From the IMG/VR virus record IMGVR_UViG_3300015182_000005: a DNA stretch of 9,822 nt. One strand, given 5' to 3'. The notes below the pieces were generated by a model. It was not told the origin of the DNA. It saw nothing but the letters and a program-made list of their open reading frames with translations, and ran no database searches. The position numbers and the translations under genes were made by a program. Shown in pieces: positions 111-9,257 of the stretch; within the stretch, counting starts at the first letter, position 1; each line of letters opens with the position of its first letter. The DNA comes from a virus. Its lineage: Duplodnaviria > Heunggongvirae > Uroviricota > Caudoviricetes.

Positions 111-140
111 GCGTCAATACGGTGCTCCGTTGACGCTTAC
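111..140. repeat. Putative IS66-type terminal inverted repeat (right end), with an internal 9-bp palindrome AAGCGTCAA / TTGACGCTT
   Basis: GCGTCAATACGGTGCTCCGTTGACGCTTAC; outer end is 5'-GTAAGCG on the complementary strand. Exact inner boundary of the repeat cannot be set without the other IS end. Confidence 0.55.
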
Positions 141-3100
141 CCTGACCCCAAGAGAGCCGTCCGCTGCCCGTGTCAGTGGCATGATTGCTTCAGGCCCGGC
201 CTCGCCCATCAACCCGGCCCCCTTCGCAAAAGCAAAATACGTCGGTGTATCCACAATAGTGTTACTGTAAGCACTCAGATTTGCCGATGTGTAAACACCA
301 CCTTTTGCGTTTGCCACTGCCCCCGAAATCCATCCGCCGACCGTACCAAGCCACCCTCCGGCACCGGAGAGTGATTTCAGTCCGTTAACAATGGCTGCAT
401 TCATCAGAATTTTTGAAACTTCCCGGAGAACTGAACTCCCCCAGTTCCTCCAGTCCACAACATTTCCGGCCAGTGCATCGGAAATATTTGATACCAGCCC
501 GTCCATAGTGGAAACGACAGCATCTGCCGCCTGCGAAGCATAATCGGTGGCACTGTCTGCCCAGTTGGTCAGCCCCTCCTGGAGTCCTGCATTCCAGTTA
601 TTACGTAAAGCATCGGCCTTTGCATAATAATCCTGCTGATCGCTGAGACGCTCTTCCAGATATTTTTTATTCAGTTCTTTCTCCTGTTTCCACAGGGCTT
701 CTTCAATTTCTCCGGCCTGATACTGTCTCAGCAGCTCGTTATTTTTCTGCTCAAACTCATGCCGGATACTCCACATTTCCTGGAGTCGTTCACGCATCCG
801 TGAGCCTTCACCATATCCCAGTAACTGCGCGTCGTTAGACGCCCGGGTACTGGCATTACTGTCCGCCAGGCTGCTTTCATACGCAGCAAGCTGCTCACGA
901 ATCTTTTTCTGGTCGATGAGTGCTGCATTCTGCAAAAGCGTTTTTTTCTGCGCTTCTGACAGGGTTGATAATTCGCCCTGACTGACCTGATATTTCATCT
1001 TAGCCAGTTCAGTATTCTGCCCTGCCAGTGCTATCTGTTCTTTTTGCTGTTTAATCAGCCGTTTATAAATATCTTCTGTTTTTTCCGCTTCGGTCTTTTT
1101 ATGCGCTTTGGGTTTATTTGCCTGGTTATTTCGCCAGGCATCCAGTGAGTTATTGATATAATTCTGTCTGGCTGTCTGATACGCCTCTCCCACAAAGCCA
1201 AGATCATCCGCAGCATAGCCCAGTCGAGCACGCTCACGCGCTTCCCCCTTAAGGCGGGACAGAGCCAGTTCGCGCTTGCTGTTATTCAGTGCGGTCTGCT
1301 GTTTATCATCCAGGGTTGCCTGTGGTAGCCGTAACGGTACATTCACCAACCCCTGTCGCTGCTGAAGTAATTCATTACCAAGCCCAAGAAGGCGATTAAA
1401 CTCGGTATGCTGCCCATTCATGATCAACAGGGACTGATACGCTTTGTTTTGTTCCGCCGCCTGTTGACGGATCAACGCAACCCGCCGCTCCTCCAGCCCG
1501 GCAAGCACATCCTGAATGGATTGCGCTTTGCCCTGCATTTGTGTGAGACGGGACTGTTCAACTGCCAGTTGATTTGTTGCTTCTGCAAGCCCTTCTGTGA
1601 CTGTTTTTACCGACGTCATGTGGTTAATCATAAAACCGTTATCGGTTGTCCAGCCCGGGTTTGCCAGCACATACTGATAGCCAGCAATTTTTTCCTGTAA
1701 GGATTTAATCTTACTTTTCTGCTCGTCAATTAACCTGTTTTGCTCATCAAGTGCCTGCCGCGTCTTTTCCTCATTATCTGACGCTTCAGGAAGCGACATT
1801 GCCGACGTTTTCTGGCGAATTTCGTCGATTGTTGCGGCATACTGGCGTGCAGATTCTCTGGCCTGCTCCTGATTCTGATACATCGTGTACCAGGCCGTCG
1901 CCCCCAGCATGACGAGTCCCGGCACACCACCAACCAGCCCCAGCGCACCACTTAACAGACGACTCCCCACTGACGTGACAGTATTCAGCGTTGTCTGCGC
2001 CGCTGTTCTGGCCGCAATATTACGGGTAAGTGACGCCTGAGCAGCTGTCAGCTTCGCTTCTGCTGCGGCCTGCCTTTCGGTACCGCGAGCAGCAACAACC
2101 GCCTGTTGCGCACGATAAACCGCCGCACGCGCTCTGGCGGTTGCTATCTGTGTCCCCCGAAGTTGCGCTTCAGCAAGAGCCACTTCGTTTCTGGCTGCAG
2201 TAATTAATCCGGCAGTTGCAGATCCAGCAGACGACGCCATATTGCCAAAATATCGGGCTACCCCGACGGCAACCAGTGCGCCAGCTGCAGCAGCCACGGT
2301 ATCAATATTGTCTGCAACACCATTCAGCACACCGGAGAGTGTCTTTGTCACTCCGCTTGCCTCGTTCGCACCACCAACCCAGGCCATAAAGGCGTTTTCA
2401 ACTTTGGTTGCAGAGGATGAAACAGTATCAGGCATTGCTGCATATTCATCACGCAACGCCCCAAGCTGACTAATCAGTGCAGGAACAACCTTATCGGCGG
2501 TCAGTTTTCCGTTATCCGCCATGGCCTTCAGATCCTTACGGGCAACCCCCATTCCCGCAGCCAGCGCACGAATAACACGATCGCCGTTCTCATTCACCGA
2601 GTTAAACTCTTCACCGCGCAGCACTCCCTGCGCCAGTGCCTGACTGAACTGCATGATCACCGAACTGGCTTCTGCTGTACTGGCACCGGATAATTTCAGG
2701 CCCGTGGAGATCGCCTCGGTGACTTTCAGTACCTCCTCAGAACTGTAACCATACTCCCGCATGGAAGCTGCAGAACGGGCAAAAAGGCTGGCGTTATCAG
2801 AAAACGCCGTCCCCGTTCTCTGGCTGATCGCCATTAATTCACGCTGTGATGCCTGAAAATCATCACTGGACTGTGAGGCCTGCTTCAGACGGGCATTTAC
2901 TGAATTCCACTCATCGGCGAGAGAAATAAGATGACCGGTAGCAAAAGCCCCGGCAAATGCCCCCGCCATATTCAGTGCCGAAGATTTAGCTGTATTTATC
3001 TGATCCGTCACTTCTGCCAGTGCACGCCGCATTTCACGGGAGGCAGCAGCAGACTGTTGGCCTCCGTTCTGCATGGTGCGGTAGTAATCCTGCCCCATAC

Positions 3101-3185
3101 GCGAAGCCCGGGAGATCTCTGACTGGAATGACCGGGAGTTTGCCGAGATTTTAATAATCAGTTCACGTAATGTCGCCACACTCAT
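114..3185 (-). CDS. Tail tape measure protein (lambda gpH-like), 1023 aa as it stands; the last 8 codons and the stop are IS-derived, so the native C-terminus is probably missing
   Basis: Long ORF directly downstream of the G/GT chaperone pair. Ala/Gln-rich coiled-coil middle section, hydrophobic glycine-rich segments, and a C-terminal region (NWADSATDYASQ ... GEAGPEAIMPL) resembling the lambda H C-terminal region. Codons 140..117 (VSVNGAPY) and the TGA at 116..114 lie inside the IS terminus. Confidence 0.88.
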   Translation of the reverse strand: MSVATLRELIIKISANSRSFQSEISRASRMGQDYYRTMQNGGQQSAAASREMRRALAEVTDQINTAKSSALNMAGAFAGAFATGHLISLADEWNSVNARLKQASQSSDDFQASQRELMAISQRTGTAFSDNASLFARSAASMREYGYSSEEVLKVTEAISTGLKLSGASTAEASSVIMQFSQALAQGVLRGEEFNSVNENGDRVIRALAAGMGVARKDLKAMADNGKLTADKVVPALISQLGALRDEYAAMPDTVSSSATKVENAFMAWVGGANEASGVTKTLSGVLNGVADNIDTVAAAAGALVAVGVARYFGNMASSAGSATAGLITAARNEVALAEAQLRGTQIATARARAAVYRAQQAVVAARGTERQAAAEAKLTAAQASLTRNIAARTAAQTTLNTVTSVGSRLLSGALGLVGGVPGLVMLGATAWYTMYQNQEQARESARQYAATIDEIRQKTSAMSLPEASDNEEKTRQALDEQNRLIDEQKSKIKSLQEKIAGYQYVLANPGWTTDNGFMINHMTSVKTVTEGLAEATNQLAVEQSRLTQMQGKAQSIQDVLAGLEERRVALIRQQAAEQNKAYQSLLIMNGQHTEFNRLLGLGNELLQQRQGLVNVPLRLPQATLDDKQQTALNNSKRELALSRLKGEARERARLGYAADDLGFVGEAYQTARQNYINNSLDAWRNNQANKPKAHKKTEAEKTEDIYKRLIKQQKEQIALAGQNTELAKMKYQVSQGELSTLSEAQKKTLLQNAALIDQKKIREQLAAYESSLADSNASTRASNDAQLLGYGEGSRMRERLQEMWSIRHEFEQKNNELLRQYQAGEIEEALWKQEKELNKKYLEERLSDQQDYYAKADALRNNWNAGLQEGLTNWADSATDYASQAADAVVSTMDGLVSNISDALAGNVVDWRNWGSSVLREVSKILMNAAIVNGLKSLSGAGGWLGTVGGWISGAVANAKGGVYTSANLSAYSNTIVDTPTYFAFAKGAGLMGEAGPEAIMPLTRAADGSLGVRVSVNGAPY

Positions 3186-3195
3186 TCTCCGGACG

Positions 3196-3217
3196 AAAAA
3201 AAACCGCCGAAGCGGTT
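3196..3217 (-). terminator. Intrinsic-terminator-like hairpin plus U8 between GT and the tape measure gene
   Basis: Minus-strand RNA AACCGCUUCGGCGGUU followed by UUUUUUUU (A-run at + 3196-3203), then CGUCCGGAGA and the ATG at 3185. Confidence 0.55.
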
Positions 3218-3225
3218 ATGTTGAC

Positions 3226-3914
3226 TCACTGAGACACTATTAAAAGCGCGTTTTCCAGTCCGGCAAATGGATCTGAAGCGCCTTCTGTCTGCTCCTTCTC
3301 CCACTGAAGAAGCGCATCATTCAGTGACACTTTGACCCCCTGCGCACCGTAAATAGCTGAAACAATCTGGGCAGCCCGGAAATCAGCCCGTTCGTCCCCC
3401 AGCGGGCTGAACCTGTCAAATTCTGCCCACATCATGATTTCTGATGCGGACATTTCCCGGCGTAACTCTGACAATGTGCGCCCCATCCTGAGCGCCAGCA
3501 TCATCAGAAAACGCATCCCCGGAAGCGCTACTTTTTTTTAACCTCGCCGGCATCACTGATCAGTTCCAGAGACTGCCGAAGAAGCCGCGCATGCACCGGG
3601 CCATACACGGCAATCACCTGTTCACGATCATCCTCTGAAAATACGGGTTGCAGTCCGGTATCACACAGAACATCAATGAACAGTTCAACATCTGCCTCCA
3701 GATTTCGGCGGGCGCGCTCCGCAACGGATAACGGTGTCTCATCATCTTTTGCTTTAACGATCTCCTGCCAGCGCAACCAGGCTTCTGCAGAAGGTTCCCG
3801 TAACACAACCGTTGCTCCCTCCCATTCAGGCACATCAACGGTTTTATGGCGAAACCCCGACATCGTTGCCAGTGCCAGATTACGGATATTTTTAGTCATC
3901 ACATCCATCCTCAT
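3226..3914 (-). CDS. Tail assembly chaperone GT-like fusion made by -1 programmed frameshift (G frame 3914..3531, then -1 frame 3537..3226)
   Basis: G ORF ends ...GEVKKK-stop on the run GTT AAA AAA AAG TAG. The -1 frame is open from 3537 and continues (VALPGMRFLMM...) to TGA at 3226. Position directly upstream of the tape measure gene matches the conserved G/GT arrangement. Confidence 0.7.
3528..3914 (-). CDS. Tail assembly chaperone (lambda gpG-like), 128 aa
   Basis: ORF between the major tail gene and the tape measure gene. Start ATG overlaps the major tail stop (TAATG); an alternative start at 3899 has GAGG 9 nt upstream. Ends in the slippery A-run. Confidence 0.75.
   Translation of the reverse strand: MRMDVMTKNIRNLALATMSGFRHKTVDVPEWEGATVVLREPSAEAWLRWQEIVKAKDDETPLSVAERARRNLEADVELFIDVLCDTGLQPVFSEDDREQVIAVYGPVHARLLRQSLELISDAGEVKKK
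3531..3537 (-). promoter_or_regulatory. -1 ribosomal frameshift slippery heptamer A AAA AAG (the dnaX-type site)
   Basis: Minus strand 3537..3531 = AAAAAAG in the X XXY YYZ register of the G frame, 1 codon before the G stop. The -1 frame downstream is open for more than 100 codons. Confidence 0.65.
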
Positions 3915-4618
3915 TAACTGACGGTTACAGTGCAGGAAGTGGAGGTCACTTTGTTAACCGGGCTCGCTGAATCAGAAATCTCGCAGGTATACGCACCGGC
4001 ATCACCGGATGCTGCTGATGCCTTACTGAACGTTGCCGCCGTCTGTCCGGAAACAGGAGAACCACCTTTTTTCCAGGCATAAGAATAAGGCGGCACACCA
4101 CCCACAGCCTCAACCGCCATTTCAAGTTTCGCTCCGGAAGCAACCCGCAGCGTGCTTTTTAAATCGACCTTCACTTTCAGCTGCTCTGTCGTCAGCACAG
4201 GCTTACCTTTCAGGCGCAGAGAAAACGTTGCAGCCACAACACCATTGGTTCCTGCAGACCAGGTATGCTGACGCACCTCTGCCATAAAGGTAAATCCGTT
4301 GCCTGACGGAAAAATAACTTTAAAGCCATACGTGGTGTCATTGTCATAGGCACTGCGCAACGCGTTCTGGGCAGCATTCAGATAAAAGTTGCCTGACATG
4401 GAAATCTCTGAAGCAGCCCCAAGACCGTTAATATTTTCCTGCTCAACAGAATACAGCGTGGTGACATCAATATCCTGCTTTTGTCCTGCGGTAAACTGCA
4501 CCTCTTTGATTGTACAGCTCAGGCCAAGATAGCTGGCAGAATCCAGGGTTTCTGCTGTTACCGGTGCAGACGAAATCATAATTTTCGTCAGTTGCGAACG
4601 CTCAAAATTAGAGGACAT
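3914..4618 (-). CDS. Major tail protein with C-terminal Ig-like domain, 234 aa
   Basis: Position immediately upstream of the chaperone pair. AGGAG 6 nt before the ATG. C-terminal ~85 aa (GGVPPYSYAWKKGGSPVSGQTAATF...GAYTCEISDSASPV...CTVTVS) has the pattern of phage Ig-like domains. Confidence 0.8.
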   Translation of the reverse strand: MSSNFERSQLTKIMISSAPVTAETLDSASYLGLSCTIKEVQFTAGQKQDIDVTTLYSVEQENINGLGAASEISMSGNFYLNAAQNALRSAYDNDTTYGFKVIFPSGNGFTFMAEVRQHTWSAGTNGVVAATFSLRLKGKPVLTTEQLKVKVDLKSTLRVASGAKLEMAVEAVGGVPPYSYAWKKGGSPVSGQTAATFSKASAASGDAGAYTCEISDSASPVNKVTSTSCTVTVS

Positions 4619-4630
4619 ACTCGTCTCCTG

Positions 4631-4657
4631 AAAATAAAAAAACCCGCCAGCGGCGGG
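4631..4657 (-). terminator. Intrinsic-terminator-like hairpin plus U-tract between the tail completion gene and the major tail gene
   Basis: Minus-strand RNA CCCGCC-GCU-GGCGGG followed by UUUUUUUAUUUU, then CAGGAGACGAGU and the ATG at 4618. Confidence 0.6.
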
Positions 4658-4678
4658 TGGGTAAAATCATTAATGACC

Positions 4679-5023
4679 TCAGGCTATTACCTGGAATTCA
4701 AGCGTGGCTCTGCTCAGACGGGAGTCAGGATCATAACCCTGCGTTTTAGAAATAACGGAGGGTGCCAGTTTTCTTACCGCATCAAGCGCCTGCTCACGAA
4801 TATTATCTGCGTCATCAGGTACTGTCGCCCAGACATCGATCTGCACGGTAATTCTGGATTCAGCCTGCCCATCAAGCACATCAGATACCGTGTCAGACAC
4901 CACAGAAAACACCAGCCACGGCGGAGATACTGCAGGCTTTCCCTCCGTCAGCGGGACCACATAAGGATAAACCTGTCCTCCGGCCAGCTGAGACAACAGG
5001 GAATACAGTGTGCCCTCCCTCAT
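4679..5023 (-). CDS. Tail completion / tail component protein (DUF3168-like), 114 aa
   Basis: Position between the gp10-like gene and the major tail gene; sequence pattern resembles the DUF3168 family by recall. Start overlaps the upstream stop by 4 nt. Confidence 0.6.
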   Translation of the reverse strand: MREGTLYSLLSQLAGGQVYPYVVPLTEGKPAVSPPWLVFSVVSDTVSDVLDGQAESRITVQIDVWATVPDDADNIREQALDAVRKLAPSVISKTQGYDPDSRLSRATLEFQVIA

Positions 5024-5469
5024 TTACTTAAGACCTCATCAATAGCCTGATTCATTCGCTGTATGGCAACCTGCGCCGCCAGCTCCTCTGTCGTATCGAA
5101 AGCCGGGCGAATGAATGGATGCGCGGGCATGTTTATCGTTCCCAGCTCCACAAAGCGCCAGTAAAATGCATTTCGGGGATCGCTGGCTTTCATGCTGTTA
5201 TCACTGTTTCCGGTTCGCAGGTTCCGTCCGCGAATGTGGACACCCGAGATAATTTCCCCCCGACGCTTTGAACGCTGAGTGAGAACAACCACATTTTTCT
5301 TCAGTTTCCCGGTTCGCTCCGGCGCACGTTCAACAACTGCATCCCGCATAACTTCAGCACCGGCACGGGTGGCATCGCGCAGAACCTTATTGTTTTCTGC
5401 CCTGCTGAGCGTCTCCAAATCCCGTGCAATATCCGCCAGGCCGGAAAAATCAAGACTGAAATCCATCAC
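5020..5469 (-). CDS. HK97 gp10-like head-tail joining / tail component protein, 149 aa
   Basis: Contains ...GTINMPAHPFIRPA..., similar to the MPARPF-type motif I associate with the HK97 gp10 family. Syntenic position; start overlaps the upstream stop. Confidence 0.65.
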   Translation of the reverse strand: MMDFSLDFSGLADIARDLETLSRAENNKVLRDATRAGAEVMRDAVVERAPERTGKLKKNVVVLTQRSKRRGEIISGVHIRGRNLRTGNSDNSMKASDPRNAFYWRFVELGTINMPAHPFIRPAFDTTEELAAQVAIQRMNQAIDEVLSK

Positions 5470-5804
5470 ACATTCCCCTTCAGGCTGCAGAGTATTTCAA
5501 GCCGGGTAGCGCGTGCATCCGGTATTGGTGGACCTTCTATACCCAGAATGGCCCCTTTAAATGCACCGGTCAGCACTTTCAGACGTGAAGTCGCTGTCAC
5601 ATCGCGCCGGAATCTCATCCAGACTCTGACCGTAGCCTGAGCGGTTTCTGCTCCGCCTGAGATTATCTCCCTCCCGCTGATACCCTTAACTTCTGCCCAT
5701 ACGGTAGCTCCCTCCGTCACCGTCTCCACCGGATGCCCTGACGGAGAGCGGGCGGTGGTGACATTCAGAATAATTACGCGATCACGTAATCTGCCCGCCT
5801 GCAT
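5466..5804 (-). CDS. Head-tail adaptor / head closure protein (Phage_H_T_join-like), 112 aa
   Basis: RLRDRVII...VWAEVKGISGREI...VRVWMRFRRDV... pattern typical of phage head-tail joining proteins. Strong GGAGGAG between the upstream stop and the ATG. Confidence 0.65.
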   Translation of the reverse strand: MQAGRLRDRVIILNVTTARSPSGHPVETVTEGATVWAEVKGISGREIISGGAETAQATVRVWMRFRRDVTATSRLKVLTGAFKGAILGIEGPPIPDARATRLEILCSLKGNV

Positions 5805-5812
5805 GTCTCCTC

Positions 5813-6130
5813 CTACAAAGGAATAAAACGATAAGGCTCCAGCAGAGAAGAAAAACCAAACGGGACTGGTGCCTTACTGACATCTGAGGAATTTTCCCGG
5901 TTTTCGCACCAGTGCCCGACCAGCAACATGAGCGCCAGCAAAACATCATCAGCTATAAGCACCCCTTCAGGATCACCTTCCGGCACCGTCTCCTCATAAA
6001 GCTTACGGTTGATAAAATTTTCTGCCTTGCGGCAGGCAGCCCGGAAATACAGCATCAGTAACTCATCATCAGTTGCATCATCTGTATCAATACGGCACTG
6101 CGCCCTGAGTTTTTCCACTATTGCTGCCAT
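5813..6130 (-). CDS. Head-tail connector protein (phage gp6-like), 105 aa from the ATG at 6130
   Basis: MAAIVEKLRAQCRIDTDDATDDELLMLYFRAA... resembles gp6-like connector N-termini. AGGAG 6 nt upstream of the ATG at 6130. The longer 165-aa ORF in the track would overlap the capsid gene by 104 nt and has no ribosome-binding site. Confidence 0.7.
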   Translation of the reverse strand: MAAIVEKLRAQCRIDTDDATDDELLMLYFRAACRKAENFINRKLYEETVPEGDPEGVLIADDVLLALMLLVGHWCENRENSSDVSKAPVPFGFSSLLEPYRFIPL

Positions 6131-6163
6131 CAGAAACTCCTGCCCGCAACACTGTGCGGGCAT

Positions 6164-6185
6164 AAAAAAACCGCGTCGGCGCGGT
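6164..6185 (-). terminator. Intrinsic-terminator-like hairpin plus U7 immediately downstream of the major capsid gene
   Basis: Minus-strand RNA ACCGCG-CCGA-CGCGGU followed by UUUUUUU. A second hairpin GCCCGCA-CAGUGU-UGCGGGC at 6141-6160 abuts the connector AGGAG. Confidence 0.6.
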
Positions 6186-6206
6186 CTGTAACTGAACAAC
6201 GAGTGG

Positions 6207-7424
6207 TTATTTGCCAGTGAGCGCCTTGATGGCTGCCACATCTTCCAGCACACAGTCAAAACGATGGAAAGCCAGAAATGCCACCTGATCAAACTCAGCA
6301 TAACGCTCAACCAGACGTTTCAGTTCCATATAAGTAACGCGGCGAATGATAAAGCGGTTGAAATCCCCCAGGAAAATGAATTTTTTTCCAGTACCAATCC
6401 CGTCAATAGCCTGATCAATAACATAAGGGATCCCCAGCACAGTAGCCGGCGTACCGCCTGCAATATCCGGCAGCCATAACGGGCGTTTCTGTCCATCCTC
6501 CATCTCTTCAATAGTCTGCAATGTGGCATCATTGAATGCCCAGCGGTATTTCGGCCCACCACGATATGCCGGATCAATGGCATGTTTCAGGGCATTCATT
6601 TCTTTCCAGGTGAAAGCGGCAGAGGCTGCAGTCTGGATGGTTCCCGTCACCGACGCTGCCAGCCCTTTTGGCTGTAACGGTGATCCCGTTCCGGTCCCCT
6701 GAACCAGATATTTTGCCTCTCCACGACCAATACGCTGGGCAATACGGTTTGCCAGATAAGATTCAATATCCACCCCACTGTCCTGGAGCAGCTCATTGGA
6801 CACACGAATTATTTTTGATGACAGCTTTTTAGCCCCCAGAATAGCGGTCCCGAACGTCACATCCTGTTCCGTTGCGGCTGTATTTTCCGCCAGCAGTTCG
6901 CCCTCTTCAGTCGTGCCATCAGACGTTGACCAGGTGATATCCTGCCCGGTTGATGTGGTCAGAAGTTGCGCCACACTGGCAATCCCGCCATAAGCCTTCA
7001 TGGTGTCAATGATTTTGTTACGCATCTGCGTGGGCACCGTATATCCGCCCTGAGAATCCGTTGTTACACTCTGAGCCCGCAGTTCACGCATCAGATTACG
7101 CTCTTCAGCATTCAGTTCTGCAAATCCGGCACGCAGAAAACGGTTAAATGCCGCAGCACGCTTCTCTTCCACCGCCTTTTTCCCGTTCTCCGCCTCATTA
7201 TTCTGGCGCTCTTCCGGCCCGGACTCATCCACATATGCCTGATCCTGACGGCGCAACTCTTCTTCACGGGCGATTTGCTCATCCAGCGCATCCAGCTCAG
7301 CTTTCGCCCTGTTCCACTCAGCCCGTTGCTCATCAGTCCATGCGTTATCACCAATTTTTTCATGCAGTGCACGCATATCCTTTGCAATGGTGTTTCGTTT
7401 TTGCTTCATCTCATGAAGTTTCAT
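6207..7424 (-). CDS. Major capsid protein, HK97 fold, with N-terminal delta (scaffolding) domain, 405 aa
   Basis: Immediately follows the prohead protease with no scaffold gene. First ~115 aa are a highly charged coiled-coil-like region (delta-domain-like), followed by a capsid-like body. Confidence 0.88.
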   Translation of the reverse strand: MKLHEMKQKRNTIAKDMRALHEKIGDNAWTDEQRAEWNRAKAELDALDEQIAREEELRRQDQAYVDESGPEERQNNEAENGKKAVEEKRAAAFNRFLRAGFAELNAEERNLMRELRAQSVTTDSQGGYTVPTQMRNKIIDTMKAYGGIASVAQLLTTSTGQDITWSTSDGTTEEGELLAENTAATEQDVTFGTAILGAKKLSSKIIRVSNELLQDSGVDIESYLANRIAQRIGRGEAKYLVQGTGTGSPLQPKGLAASVTGTIQTAASAAFTWKEMNALKHAIDPAYRGGPKYRWAFNDATLQTIEEMEDGQKRPLWLPDIAGGTPATVLGIPYVIDQAIDGIGTGKKFIFLGDFNRFIIRRVTYMELKRLVERYAEFDQVAFLAFHRFDCVLEDVAAIKALTGK

Positions 7425-7438
7425 CGTCAGTAGTATCC

Positions 7439-8038
7439 TTATGCATTAAGAAGGGTCAAAAGGCGCTCACGCGCCATTCGTTCATTAACAGCTTTCTTCA
7501 GCGCACCACTCGCCCGCGCTTCCTGCCAGGCTTTCATTGAGCGGACACCGGAGTCTGCGTCCTGATAGGCCGGATATGTCACCGGGCTGACGTCATACAG
7601 ACGAGAAATGCGCGTGATTTCCCGGATAACAATCCCCTCGTCGTCTTCATACCAGCTCTCTCCGTCACTGGCGACACGAAACGCGAACGAGGACTGGTTA
7701 ATGTCACCACGCAACATTGGAGACAGCACCAGGTCACAAATAGTCGGAGTATCCGGTGCAACAATGTCATAACGTAAACCGCGTTCATCCACCGACAATG
7801 ACAATGTGCCGGCAGAACTTCGTCCGAGAATGAAATTAGGATCATGATTAAACAAGCCACGTACATCATCATTCAGTACATCATCAAAAGCCCCCGGCTT
7901 GATGATTTCACGAAATCCCCACAGAGGTTCTGAACGACTGTTAAATACCGAGCCATACCCCAGAATGTGGGTCGGGGCATTATCATATTGTTCCGCCCGC
8001 ACCTCCCCGCTGTAACAGCGCGTTTCACGATCATTCAT
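7439..8038 (-). CDS. Prohead maturation protease (HK97 family), 199 aa
   Basis: Position between portal and capsid. Motifs GYGSVFN, LFNHD (His) and INQSSFAF (Ser) are consistent with the HK97 prohead protease family. Start overlaps the portal stop by 8 nt. Confidence 0.82.
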   Translation of the reverse strand: MNDRETRCYSGEVRAEQYDNAPTHILGYGSVFNSRSEPLWGFREIIKPGAFDDVLNDDVRGLFNHDPNFILGRSSAGTLSLSVDERGLRYDIVAPDTPTICDLVLSPMLRGDINQSSFAFRVASDGESWYEDDEGIVIREITRISRLYDVSPVTYPAYQDADSGVRSMKAWQEARASGALKKAVNERMARERLLTLLNA

Positions 8039-9257
8039 CGTTCTTTTCCTCTGTGCCTTTCGTATCTTTAAAGTTATTCAACGGATTTGCTGCATTTACG
8101 CTGACCAGCATTTCATCCAGACCGTCAACCGGGTTCATATCCTCAAATGCCCTGGCTTCATTCCGACTCATCCAGCCATCTGTAATGGCAAAGTGATAGA
8201 ACTGCGCACGCTCCTGTGGGGTCCCACGGAGCAACCCCGTGAGGTTAAAACGAACGTAATACCCGGCAGCCCGTTCTGTACGGGTAAACAGGCGACGGTT
8301 AAGCTCCTGCTCCCAGTTCGCAACCCAGGGCATCATCGTGTAGCGAACAAACTGAATCGCCTGCTGCGTAATATTCGAAAATGTGGCTTTTTCCAGGTCA
8401 TTAATCATGTGCGCCGGGACATTAAAAATCCCTGCAATCATCGACCTGTTCAGCTTGGTCATATCAATGATCTGAGCATCCACCGGAGAAACTGTCAGAG
8501 CGCGGTAATCCAGTTGCGCAGGCAACAGCATGGTTTTATTTTCCTGGCTGCGAAGCGCTGTCACCGCCCGCTGCCACATATTTTTAAGCCTGCCCCAGCT
8601 CTGTTCGTTCAGTTCATTTTTCACAGAAATAATACCGGCAGGACGGGCATTACCGTTAAAAAAGGCGCTGGTATACTGCTGGCCACTCATTCCCATACCA
8701 ATGGTTTCAGCATGCTGCATGATCGGGCTCAGTCCCATTTTCTGATTGTTTCCCAGCGCCCTGATATGGATCATGTCGTCCGGACTTACCGCAAATGCAC
8801 CCTCTTCGTTATACACCCCGTAAGTATGACGCCCACCGGTGTTAAGTAACGTGGTTTCCCATGGCATACAGCATTCAAGGCTGGTAACCTCTCCACGACG
8901 ATTACGTTTTACCCACGTATAACCATTGCCCCACCCCAGCACATGACGCTGCTTCAGTTCCCGCCACTTATAGCTGGTCTGCCAGGCATTAGGTTCATCA
9001 TGAACGAGCCAGAACAACGGATGATCGCGTGCAGGCTGAACATGCTCATTCGTTTTTCGCATCACATGCAGGGGCATCTGAGCCACACTGGATGAAATAA
9101 CATAAATACAGGCATAGACAGCAGCCAGCTTCATGGATGTTTCCGGACTGACATACACATCCCGGGCAAAAATATTATCCGTCTCAGCGGCCTCTCCGGT
9201 TACCGGAACCGAGGGATTTTCCAGAGACTCACTGCGAAACAGAGCATCAAGAAGCAT
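8031..9257 (-). CDS. Portal protein (HK97 family), 408 aa
   Basis: Position downstream of the large terminase; size and N-terminal pattern typical of HK97-type portals. AGGAGA 5 nt upstream of the ATG. Confidence 0.85.
   Translation of the reverse strand: MLLDALFRSESLENPSVPVTGEAAETDNIFARDVYVSPETSMKLAAVYACIYVISSSVAQMPLHVMRKTNEHVQPARDHPLFWLVHDEPNAWQTSYKWRELKQRHVLGWGNGYTWVKRNRRGEVTSLECCMPWETTLLNTGGRHTYGVYNEEGAFAVSPDDMIHIRALGNNQKMGLSPIMQHAETIGMGMSGQQYTSAFFNGNARPAGIISVKNELNEQSWGRLKNMWQRAVTALRSQENKTMLLPAQLDYRALTVSPVDAQIIDMTKLNRSMIAGIFNVPAHMINDLEKATFSNITQQAIQFVRYTMMPWVANWEQELNRRLFTRTERAAGYYVRFNLTGLLRGTPQERAQFYHFAITDGWMSRNEARAFEDMNPVDGLDEMLVSVNAANPLNNFKDTKGTEEKNDE

What the first reader, a model, noticed from the sequence alone, without database searches (positions are those of the whole stretch)
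4619..4678. Strong terminator-like hairpin directly upstream of the major tail gene
A GC-rich 6-bp stem (CCCGCC/GGCGGG) followed by UUUUUUUAUUUU lies in the sense orientation between the tail completion gene and the major tail gene. A terminator before the most abundant tail protein is counterintuitive. It may instead be a processing or stability element, or the site of an undetected internal promoter; I see no convincing -10/-35 pair.
Basis: partly seen in the sequence, partly recalled or inferred. Interest (0 to 1): 0.4.

Follow-up and report, generated by a model that had tools for sequence, protein, structure and literature searches.

The report
Conserved terminator before phage tail-tube gene
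The hairpin is real and looks like a textbook transcription terminator, but it is an ordinary feature: phage HK97's genome record already marks a putative terminator at the same spot, and the phage's anti-termination protein should let transcription run through it during lytic growth.

Summary
On the minus (coding) strand, 4658..4642 forms ACCCGCC-GCU-GGCGGGU (-12 kcal/mol). A U-rich run follows at 4641..4631, then the ribosome-binding site AGGAG and the ATG of the major tail gene at 4618.

The window is an HK97-like late operon of a lambdoid E. coli prophage, present in 899 of 5,426 complete E. coli genomes. A 96-100% protein-identical relative, phage Evi, carries a Q antiterminator upstream on the same strand.

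The HK97 and mEp234 genome records already annotate a (putative) terminator in this same slot.

Of 133 related loci (45 distinct hairpins; Enterobacterales, Pseudomonas, Burkholderia), 132 keep a GC hairpin plus T-run 18-25 nt before the tail gene's ATG. The stems differ in sequence and show compensatory changes.

The hairpin stays next to the tail gene when extra genes are inserted upstream or when the neck module is swapped.

Best reading: a genuine intrinsic terminator that stops ordinary RNA polymerase and is read through by Q-modified polymerase. Termination itself was not measured.

No promoter-like site lies in or near the gap. RNA-stability or translation roles cannot be excluded.

Novelty: already known. 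Interest: low.

The parts
4679..5023 (-). Tail terminator / tail completion gene (114 aa). Its TGA stop at 4681..4679 lies 20 nt upstream of the stem.
   Evidence: PF11367 at 3.4e-11; PHROG tail terminator at 2.8e-15.
4659..4678 (-). 20-nt spacer between the stop codon and the hairpin. Its sequence is not conserved among relatives, but its length is constrained: 16-29 nt in the diverse loci where the script could place the upstream stop.
4642..4658 (-). Terminator hairpin ACCCGCC-GCU-GGCGGGU. The 5' arm is 4658..4652, the loop 4651..4649 and the 3' arm 4648..4642.
   Evidence: Energy -12.0 kcal/mol. Conserved with compensatory changes.
4631..4641 (-). U-rich tract UUUUUUAUUUU directly abutting the stem (U7AU4 when the stem's last U is counted). 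Close relatives differ by one T in its length.
4616..4629 (-). Shine-Dalgarno sequence AGGAG (4629..4625), a 6-nt spacer, and the ATG (4618..4616) of the major tail gene.
   Evidence: The N-terminus MSxxYE.. is conserved in alignment A1. The SD core lies 3-8 nt (mostly 5-7) from the ATG in 51 of 52 diverse loci.
3914..4618 (-). Major tail (tube) protein gene, 234 aa: a tube domain followed by a C-terminal Ig-like domain.
   Evidence: PHROG_158 at 1e-106; Ig_2 and tail-tube-protein Pfam hits; 71-72% identity to HK97-group major tail subunits.
6168..6187 (-). Sister element: a sense-strand terminator-like hairpin directly after the major capsid gene and about 25 nt before the Ad1 adaptor gene.
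   Evidence: HK97 annotates a putative terminator in the same slot.
3202..3217 (-). Sister element: a sense-strand terminator-like hairpin (UUCG loop) plus U-run between the T part of the chaperone gene and the tape-measure gene. It has the same hairpin / U-run / SD / ATG layout.
   Evidence: Matched by the covariance model built on the tail-gene slot (window 3179-3231, 30 bits).

Best explanation
The element is a genuine Rho-independent (intrinsic) terminator inside the late operon of an HK97-like lambdoid prophage. It corresponds to the putative terminator annotated between genes 11 and 12 of HK97.

Proposed mechanism:
1. The GC hairpin forms in the nascent RNA while the weak rU:dA hybrid of the abutting U-tract is in the polymerase. 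An unmodified E. coli polymerase is released at about 4631-4641.
2. During lytic growth the late operon is transcribed from the Q-dependent late promoter by Q-modified, terminator-resistant polymerase. That polymerase reads through this site as it reads through the terminators between Q and the lysis genes, so supply of major tail protein is not limited.
3. The selected role is therefore that of a conditional barrier at the neck/tail boundary. It stops transcription that did not start at the Q-loading site, such as spurious starts, read-through in the lysogen, or transcripts of inserted accessory genes (morons), from expressing the tail genes.

Shown here: the anatomy, the orientation, conservation with compensatory changes, the linkage to the tail gene, and the Q context in a close relative.

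Inferred: that termination actually occurs, that Q overrides it, and that insulation is what selection acts on.
For: Anatomy:
- 7-bp stem with 6 G-C pairs, 3-nt loop, -12.0 kcal/mol, and a U7AU4 tract abutting the stem.
- One-directional: the + strand has no T-run after the stem.

Prior annotation at the same slot: HK97 NC_002167 6692-6719 'terminator, putative' and mEp234 6643-6670 'rho-independent terminator'.

Conservation:
- 132 of 133 loci, with 45 distinct hairpins, have a GC stem plus T-run 18-25 nt before the ATG. Many loops are UNCG tetraloops.
- 51 of 52 diverse (species-level and phage-record) loci pass a stringent terminator pattern in this slot.
- Across the same 267 kb there are 118 sense-strand motifs against 12 antisense.
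- All 86 covariance-model hits are on the sense strand.

Covariation:
- All slots: 89.7% of cells paired against 78.9% in shuffles; 56 double-sided changes against 16; score 0.381 against 0.178 (0 of 500 shuffles reach it); slid controls at most 0.17.
- Tail-gene slot only: 86.9% paired against 80.2%; 27 double changes against 8.4 (0 of 1000).

Joint conservation of the stem and an abutting U-tract is the signature of termination rather than of a simple stabilising hairpin.

The stop-to-stem distance is 16-29 nt in all but one of the 43 diverse loci where the script could place the upstream stop (the one outlier is 90 nt), and 20 nt by hand in the window. From general knowledge, not tested here, that clears a ribosome sitting on the stop codon.

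Q context: phage Evi (96-100% protein identity over the window's genes) has a Q-family protein (PF03589, 6.9e-51), sense-strand terminators downstream of it, and the whole late region on one strand. Q renders polymerase resistant to termination signals (PMC6606751 abstract).

Inserted genes sit upstream of the hairpin:
- L020 has a KilA-N gene flanked by two hairpins.
- L031 has an extra ORF with the hairpin kept next to the tail gene.
- This fits the promoter-gene-terminator design of morons (PMC3594210).

The phage L genome paper proposes the same roles for intra-operon terminators (PMC8022706).
Against: - No transcript data were available, so termination efficiency and Q read-through at this site are untested.
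- The hairpin travels with the downstream tail gene, not the upstream gene. In L017 a lambda-type Z/U neck is joined to this tail gene with the hairpin at the joint. Its distance to the ATG is held to 18-24 nt. Both facts would also fit a role in tail-gene expression.
- Phage lambda has only a 7-nt U-V gap and no hairpin, so such a barrier is not essential for a lambdoid late operon.
- The authors who discuss such sites say their roles are not known.
- Q is shown in a near-identical relative, not in the window itself.
Confidence: 0.55

Rival explanations
1. RNA processing or stability element. After endonucleolytic cleavage in the AU-rich flank, the hairpin protects the 3' end of the head-neck mRNA from exonucleases. 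Alternatively, as a 5'-proximal stem-loop, it protects the tail-gene mRNA. Either way the long late transcript would acquire segments with different half-lives.
For: - Hairpins sit at module boundaries: after the capsid gene, before the tail gene and before the tape-measure gene.
- The hairpin stays with the tail gene.
- A-U-rich single-stranded RNA next to a stem is a typical RNase E context (general knowledge, not tested).
Against: - A pure stabiliser needs no U-tract abutting the stem, yet the T-run is kept in 132 of 133 loci.
- The stem is only 5-9 bp, too short for RNase III.
- The genes whose 3' end it would protect are low-copy neck genes.
- No 5' or 3' end data exist.
Confidence: 0.14
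2. Translation-initiation cassette of the major tail gene. The U-rich tract next to the Shine-Dalgarno sequence would act as an S1-binding enhancer. The hairpin would keep the ribosome-binding site free of upstream structure. Together they would give the roughly 30-fold jump in output needed between the neck genes and the tube protein.
For: - The hairpin-to-ATG distance is fixed at 18-24 nt, and the SD follows the T-run directly in 52 loci.
- Linkage is to the tail-gene family, not to the upstream gene (L017, L020, L031).
- U-rich enhancers upstream of the SD are documented in E. coli (general knowledge).
Against: - The same hairpin / U-run / SD / ATG layout precedes low-copy genes: the tape measure (window 3179-3231) and the Ad1 adaptor after the capsid gene.
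- The layout therefore looks like compact packing rather than a high-expression device.
- Lambda reaches the same protein ratio without it.
Confidence: 0.12
3. Leaky terminator that works even on Q-modified polymerase. It would trim the amount of tail mRNA relative to head mRNA, acting as a dosage or timing attenuator.
For: Partial termination is one of the two roles suggested for intra-operon terminators in phage L (PMC8022706). Up to four such sites occur in series along HK97-type operons.
Against: It would lower the mRNA of the most abundant tail protein. There is no competing antiterminator structure, and the spacer is not conserved, so the site is not a regulated attenuator.
Confidence: 0.1
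4. DNA-level relic: the leftover terminator of a lost inserted gene, or a short shared sequence that promotes module exchange, with no present RNA function.
For: - Inserted genes occupy this slot in L020 and L031.
- A module joint lies at the hairpin in L017, whose stem is nearly identical to the window's.
- L107 carries a tandem duplication of the spacer plus hairpin.
Against: The element is kept in 132 of 133 loci across three bacterial orders, with compensatory stem changes and 118 to 12 strand asymmetry. That indicates selection on the transcribed RNA structure.
Confidence: 0.05
5. Internal promoter for the tail genes, or the 3' end of a small Hfq-binding RNA derived from the upstream gene's 3' UTR.
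For: - The gap is AT-rich downstream of the stem.
- A hairpin with a poly-U tail is an Hfq-binding module (general knowledge).
- There is a weak Rfam match to isrK (21 bits).
Against: - No promoter-like site lies on the coding strand near the gap.
- The isrK hit is far below its 50-bit threshold and rests on the terminator alone, as do the Trp-leader and other sRNA hits.
- The 20-nt spacer is not conserved, so there is no candidate seed region.
Confidence: 0.04

Closest known systems
Putative terminator between genes 11 (tail terminator) and 12 (major tail subunit) of phage HK97 (NC_002167 6692-6719), and the equivalent 'rho-independent terminator' of mEp234 (NC_019715 6643-6670)
   Same: Same slot, same flanking gene families (tail terminator 51-53% identical, tail tube domain 79% identical) and same layout of hairpin, U-run, SD and ATG. 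The stem is nearly the same: GAACCCGCC-NNNN-GGCGGGTTT against ACCCGCC-GCT-GGCGGGT.
   Different: 3-nt loop instead of 4, and a longer U-run. The window's tail gene has no second hairpin directly after it, whereas HK97 and mEp234 have one. In the records the function is only 'putative', not tested.
Lambda-type late-operon control: Q antiterminator, late promoter pR' and terminator tR'
   Same: A Q-family protein followed by sense terminators precedes the lysis and structural genes in the near-identical phage Evi. Terminators downstream are read through by Q-modified polymerase (PMC6606751, PMC7547250).
   Different: This hairpin is about 11 kb downstream of Q, inside the structural genes, not at the control point. 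Lambda has no hairpin between U and V, where the gap is 7 nt.
Moron terminators (HK97 gene 15 element: promoter, gene, terminator inserted in the tail operon)
   Same: A factor-independent terminator on the sense strand at a gene boundary of the tail operon. In L020 and L031 extra genes sit immediately upstream of the hairpin.
   Different: In the window no extra gene and no promoter accompany it. It is kept in nearly all relatives, with or without an insert.
Intra-operon terminators of P22-like phage L (after the procapsid module) and of SPP1 late gene clusters
   Same: Predicted intrinsic terminators inside a late operon that has a single promoter. Their roles are stated to be unknown, with partial termination or blocking spurious transcription suggested (PMC8022706; PMC6316719).
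   Different: The slots differ. In SPP1 they follow the capsid gene and the tail gene; gene 17 and gene 17.1 are only 13 nt apart.

Membership tests
Intrinsic (Rho-independent) terminator | GC-rich stem-loop (stem about 5-14 bp, loop 3-8 nt) with a stable fold | tested here: met
   7 pairs, 6 of them G-C, 3-nt loop, -12.0 kcal/mol.
Intrinsic (Rho-independent) terminator | U-rich tract of about 7-9 nt immediately after the stem | tested here: met
   U7AU4 abutting the stem. Kept in 132 of 133 relatives.
Intrinsic (Rho-independent) terminator | Oriented with transcription and lying outside coding sequence | tested here: met
   On the same strand as all genes of the window. A 1-nt length polymorphism of the T-run among close relatives shows the stretch is non-coding.
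Intrinsic (Rho-independent) terminator | RNA 3' ends / release of RNA polymerase at the U-tract | not testable with these tools
   No transcript data. The EHEC Sakai Term-seq set cannot be used because prophage Sp15 has a lambda-type U-V junction.
HK97-type late-operon terminator at the gene 11/12 slot | Located between homologues of HK97 gp11 and gp12, directly before the gp12 ribosome-binding site | tested here: met
Q-antiterminated late operon (context needed for read-through) | Q-family protein, late promoter and terminators upstream on the same strand | tested here: inconclusive
   Met in phage Evi, which is 96-100% protein-identical over the window's genes. The window itself ends within the terminase gene, so its own Q region is not seen.
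Sigma-70 promoter | -35 and -10 hexamers with 16-18 nt spacing on the coding strand | tested here: not met
   No site within or near 4600-4900 on the minus strand.
Rfam isrK and other Hfq-binding sRNA families | Score at or above the family's gathering threshold | tested here: not met
   isrK scores 21 bits against a 50-bit threshold. The alignment rests on the terminator hairpin only.
Transcription attenuator or riboswitch | Conserved alternative (antiterminator) pairing or a conserved leader upstream of the terminator | tested here: not met
   The spacer is 16-29 nt, its sequence is not conserved, and no G-rich partner for the 5' arm is present.
RNase III processing site (T7-type) | Roughly 20-bp, two-turn double-stranded stem | tested here: not met
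   Stems are 4-9 bp in all 45 variants. The length requirement is from general knowledge.

The most novel reading that the evidence does not exclude
The hairpin plus U-tract may be a portable 5' cassette of this major-tail-gene family rather than primarily a stop signal. In that reading it moves with the gene across module swaps. It would set the gene's high output, through a protected 5' end after processing and a U-rich enhancer next to the ribosome-binding site. It would also provide a ready-made landing site for accessory genes upstream.
Probability: 0.15. Interest if true: 0.45.

Novelty: already known. Interest (0 to 1): 0.2.

Why it matters
Practical value:
- It fixes the start of the major tail gene at 4618. 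Several database records (Evi, BP-4795, phi644-2) extend the gene through or across the hairpin region.
- It marks a boundary where accessory genes are tolerated, which is useful for phage engineering.

Scientific value is modest. The roles of terminators inside antiterminated late operons are said to be unknown (PMC8022706). This slot is the most conserved one in the HK97 group (51 of 52 diverse loci). Its prophage is present in 17% of complete E. coli genomes, so it is a convenient place to test the question.

Tried and rejected
1. Rfam search of the window and of 4560-4760. Only sub-threshold hits appeared (isrK, Trp leader, anti-hemB, isrD), all driven by the terminator. Rejected as family membership.
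2. Internal promoter. No site was found.
3. Attenuator or riboswitch. There is no conserved leader and no alternative pairing.
4. First covariance model, R1. It used the window's 3-nt-loop register, whereas most relatives have 4-nt loops. Pair counts were no better than shuffles, and the +1 slide scored higher. I rebuilt it as R2.
5. Juhala et al. 2000, the HK97/HK022 genome paper, is not held in the library. What its authors said about these terminators could not be read, so only the GenBank annotation is cited.
6. EHEC Sakai Term-seq data (PMC7547250) as a test. Sp15 has a lambda-type U-V junction without the hairpin, so the data set does not cover this element.
7. SPP1 as an analogue. Its terminators follow the capsid and tail genes and do not precede the tail gene.
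8. Reverse linkage test: tail-terminator homologues followed by an unrelated tail gene. In the phage collection the two families nearly always occur together, so the test was not informative. Linkage rests on L017, L020 and L031 only.
9. Per-gene identity profile to look for a mosaic break at the hairpin. The tail terminator protein is simply less conserved than its neighbours, with no clear break. The clear break is around the capsid/adaptor genes.

Full report
**What is in the window**

All real genes lie on the minus strand and form the head-neck-tail part of an HK97-like late operon:

| Window coordinates | Gene |
|---|---|
| 8031-9257 | portal |
| 7439-8038 | protease |
| 6207-7424 | major capsid protein |
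| 5813-6142 | Ad1 adaptor |
| 5466-5804 | head closure |
| 5020-5469 | gp10-like neck protein |
| 4679-5023 | tail terminator / completion protein |
| 3914-4618 | major tail protein with a C-terminal Ig-like domain |
| 3528-3914 and 3226-3516 | G and T chaperone |
| 114-3185 | tape measure |

- The DNA is 100% identical over 2.2 kb to four induced E. coli phages (e.g. vB_EcoS-640R1) and 97% identical to phage Evi.
- The 401 bp around the finding occur in 899 of 5,426 complete E. coli genomes, always on the chromosome. This is a common temperate phage.

**The observation**

On the minus strand the gap reads TGA, then a 20-nt spacer, then ACCCGCC GCT GGCGGGT, then TTTTTTATTTT, C, AGGAG, ACGAGT, ATG.

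The hairpin folds at -12.0 kcal/mol.
- It is one-directional: on the + strand the stem is followed by GGGTAAAATC.
- The tool's loose terminator pattern is not enriched in the window.
- A stringent pattern finds four sites, all on the sense strand, against 0.28 +/- 0.53 expected on both strands.
- Three of the four fill the only three intergenic gaps longer than 15 nt: after the capsid gene, before the tail gene and before the tape-measure gene.
- The fourth (4102..4089) lies in the codons for a conserved GGVPPYSY motif of the Ig-like domain and is probably a by-product of coding.

**It is already annotated in the type phage**

- The HK97 reference record marks 'terminator, putative' at 6692-6719, between gene 11 (tail terminator) and gene 12 (major tail subunit). 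It marks three more: after the capsid gene, after gene 12, and after the gene 15 moron before the tape measure.
- The mEp234 record marks a 'rho-independent terminator' in the same slot.
- These phages share 51-53% (tail terminator) and 79% (tube domain) protein identity with the window.

**Conservation**

I collected 133 loci that encode relatives of the tail protein: 6 phage records, 46 species-level bacterial genomes and 80 viral contigs, plus the window.

- In 132 of them a GC-rich hairpin followed directly by a T-run lies 18-25 nt before the ATG. The one exception (L102) carries three substitutions in the stem.
- There are 45 distinct hairpins. Examples are CCCGCC/GGCGGG, GCCACC/GGTGG(T/C), GCTGC/GCAGC, AGACCGC/GCGGTCT, CCCGGC/GCCGGG and GGCCCGC/GCGGGCC. 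Many have UNCG tetraloops. Hosts range from Escherichia to Proteus, Yersinia, Pantoea, Pseudomonas lundensis and Burkholderia.
- A covariance model in the correct register found 86 matches, all on the sense strand.
- On its alignment, 89.7% of cells pair against 78.9% in shuffles. There are 56 double-sided changes against 16. The covariation score is 0.381 against 0.178 (0 of 500 shuffles reach it), and slid controls reach at most 0.17.
- Restricted to the tail-gene slot: 86.9% against 80.2% paired, and 27 against 8.4 double changes (0 of 1000).
- These alignments were fitted to the model, so the numbers lean toward the structure. The per-sequence search does not depend on them.
- In the 52 diverse loci the stringent pattern occurs 118 times on the sense strand and 12 times on the antisense strand. 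The tail-gene slot is filled in 51 of 52; the 52nd has a weaker stem. That makes it the most conserved slot. By position bins, roughly 18 hits fall after the capsid gene, 13 after short tail genes, and the rest downstream towards the tape measure.

**Which gene it belongs to**

- The stop-to-stem distance is 16-29 nt, with one 90-nt outlier, in the 43 diverse loci where the script could place the upstream stop. The stem-to-ATG distance is 18-24 nt in all 52.
- In L020 a KilA-N gene is inserted between the tail terminator gene and the tail gene, with a hairpin on each side.
- In L031 an extra ORF is inserted and the hairpin remains next to the tail gene.
- In L017 the neck genes are of the lambda Z/U type (PF06763, PF06141), yet the hairpin is present before the HK97-type tail gene.
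- Lambda and the Sakai prophage Sp15 have a different tail-gene type, a 7-nt U-V gap and no hairpin.
- The element therefore travels with this tail-gene family. This rests on three informative loci.

**Why a terminator here is not a paradox**

- Phage Evi is 96-100% protein-identical to the window gene by gene. It encodes a Q-family antiterminator (PF03589, 6.9e-51) on the same strand about 11 kb upstream.
- Downstream of Q come a promoter-like site and four strong sense terminators, then the lysis genes.
- Q renders RNA polymerase resistant to termination signals (PMC6606751). The late promoter is constitutive and is terminated immediately downstream in lysogens (PMC7547250).
- A polymerase that has reached the structural genes is therefore already terminator-resistant. 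This hairpin should stop only polymerases that were not modified.
- The same two roles are suggested for intra-operon terminators of phage L, whose authors add that their roles are not known: blocking transcription that starts without antitermination, or partial termination (PMC8022706).
- Inserted accessory genes (morons) carry their own promoter and need a terminator so that they can be expressed from a repressed prophage (PMC3594210). The L020 and L031 arrangements fit this.

**Most likely mechanism and its rivals**

I rate the conditional-barrier terminator at 0.55.

- For it: a GC stem and an abutting U-tract are conserved together, which is what termination requires. A mere stabilising hairpin or a mere U-rich enhancer would not need both. 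The strand asymmetry and the Q context also support it.
- Against it: there are no transcript data, and the linkage to the downstream gene with fixed spacing to the ribosome-binding site would also fit a role in tail-gene expression.
- That rival is weakened because the same hairpin / U-run / SD / ATG layout precedes low-copy genes, the tape measure and the Ad1 adaptor.
- A promoter, an attenuator, an RNase III site and a known small-RNA family are each contradicted by a test.

**Verdict**

- The element is already annotated at this slot in HK97 and mEp234 and is ordinary for this phage group.
- What this analysis adds is the extent of conservation, the covariation, the linkage to the tail-gene family, and the use of the slot by inserted genes.
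- Interest is low (0.2).

Noticed in passing
window 6168-6187 (-) and 3202-3217 (-): Two more strong sense-strand terminator-like hairpins. One lies directly after the major capsid gene. The other lies between the T chaperone part and the tape-measure gene, with a UUCG loop. Together with the finding, they fill all three intergenic gaps longer than 15 nt. HK97 annotates putative terminators in the equivalent slots.
   Followed up: partly
window 4089-4102 (-): A fourth, weaker terminator-like motif (GGTGG-TGTG-CCGCC plus TTATTCTT) lies inside the major tail gene, in the codons for the conserved GGVPPYSY motif of the Ig-like domain. It is probably a by-product of coding.
   Followed up: no
window 4631-4669 (-); L001 5090-5845; L003 1372-2217; L007 1336-1932: Close relatives differ by one T in the T-run (38 loci against 21). 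With the shorter run, an upstream ATG (window 4669) comes into frame with the tail gene. That explains why the phage Evi record annotates a tail protein 17 aa longer that runs through the hairpin. BP-4795 and phi644-2 also have over-long tail-gene annotations. The conserved N-terminus supports the ATG at 4618.
   Followed up: partly
L020 1669-2503: In an Enterobacter intestinihominis prophage a KilA-N domain gene (1843-2373, PF04383 at 1.2e-17) is inserted between the tail terminator gene and the major tail gene. It is bracketed by two terminator hairpins (1690-1707 and 2464-2477), a moron-like arrangement in this exact slot.
   Followed up: partly
L031 1515-1966: A Proteus prophage has a 120-aa ORF with no Pfam match inserted in the same slot. 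The hairpin remains next to the tail gene, and there is no hairpin after the tail terminator gene.
   Followed up: partly
L017 1479-2503: A Klebsiella spallanzanii prophage joins lambda-type Z and U neck genes to the HK97-type major tail gene. The hairpin at the joint (AACCCGCCGCTGGCGGGTT) is almost identical to the window's, although the tail proteins are only 57% identical overall. This may be a module-exchange point.
   Followed up: partly
L107 about 2400-2503; L102 2447-2503: L107 carries a tandem duplication of the spacer plus hairpin. L102 has three substitutions that break the stem and is the only one of 133 loci without an intact hairpin.
   Followed up: no
window 4637-4699 (-): Weak Rfam match to the Salmonella prophage sRNA isrK (21 bits, threshold 50). 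The alignment is carried by the terminator hairpin and U-tail only.
   Followed up: yes
window 6207-7424 (-) versus L135 (HK97): The capsid protein is only 24% identical to HK97 gp5 and the Ad1 adaptor gives no match. The neck and tail proteins are 51-87% identical. This is a mosaic break around the capsid/adaptor genes, near the post-capsid hairpin.
   Followed up: no
L001 (phage Evi) 15200-17060 (-): Downstream of the Q gene lie a promoter-like site (16868..16840), four strong sense terminators (16975, 16573, 15600, 15237), and a TerB-domain gene (15980-16411) before the lysis genes. This looks like a late-promoter moron region.
   Followed up: no
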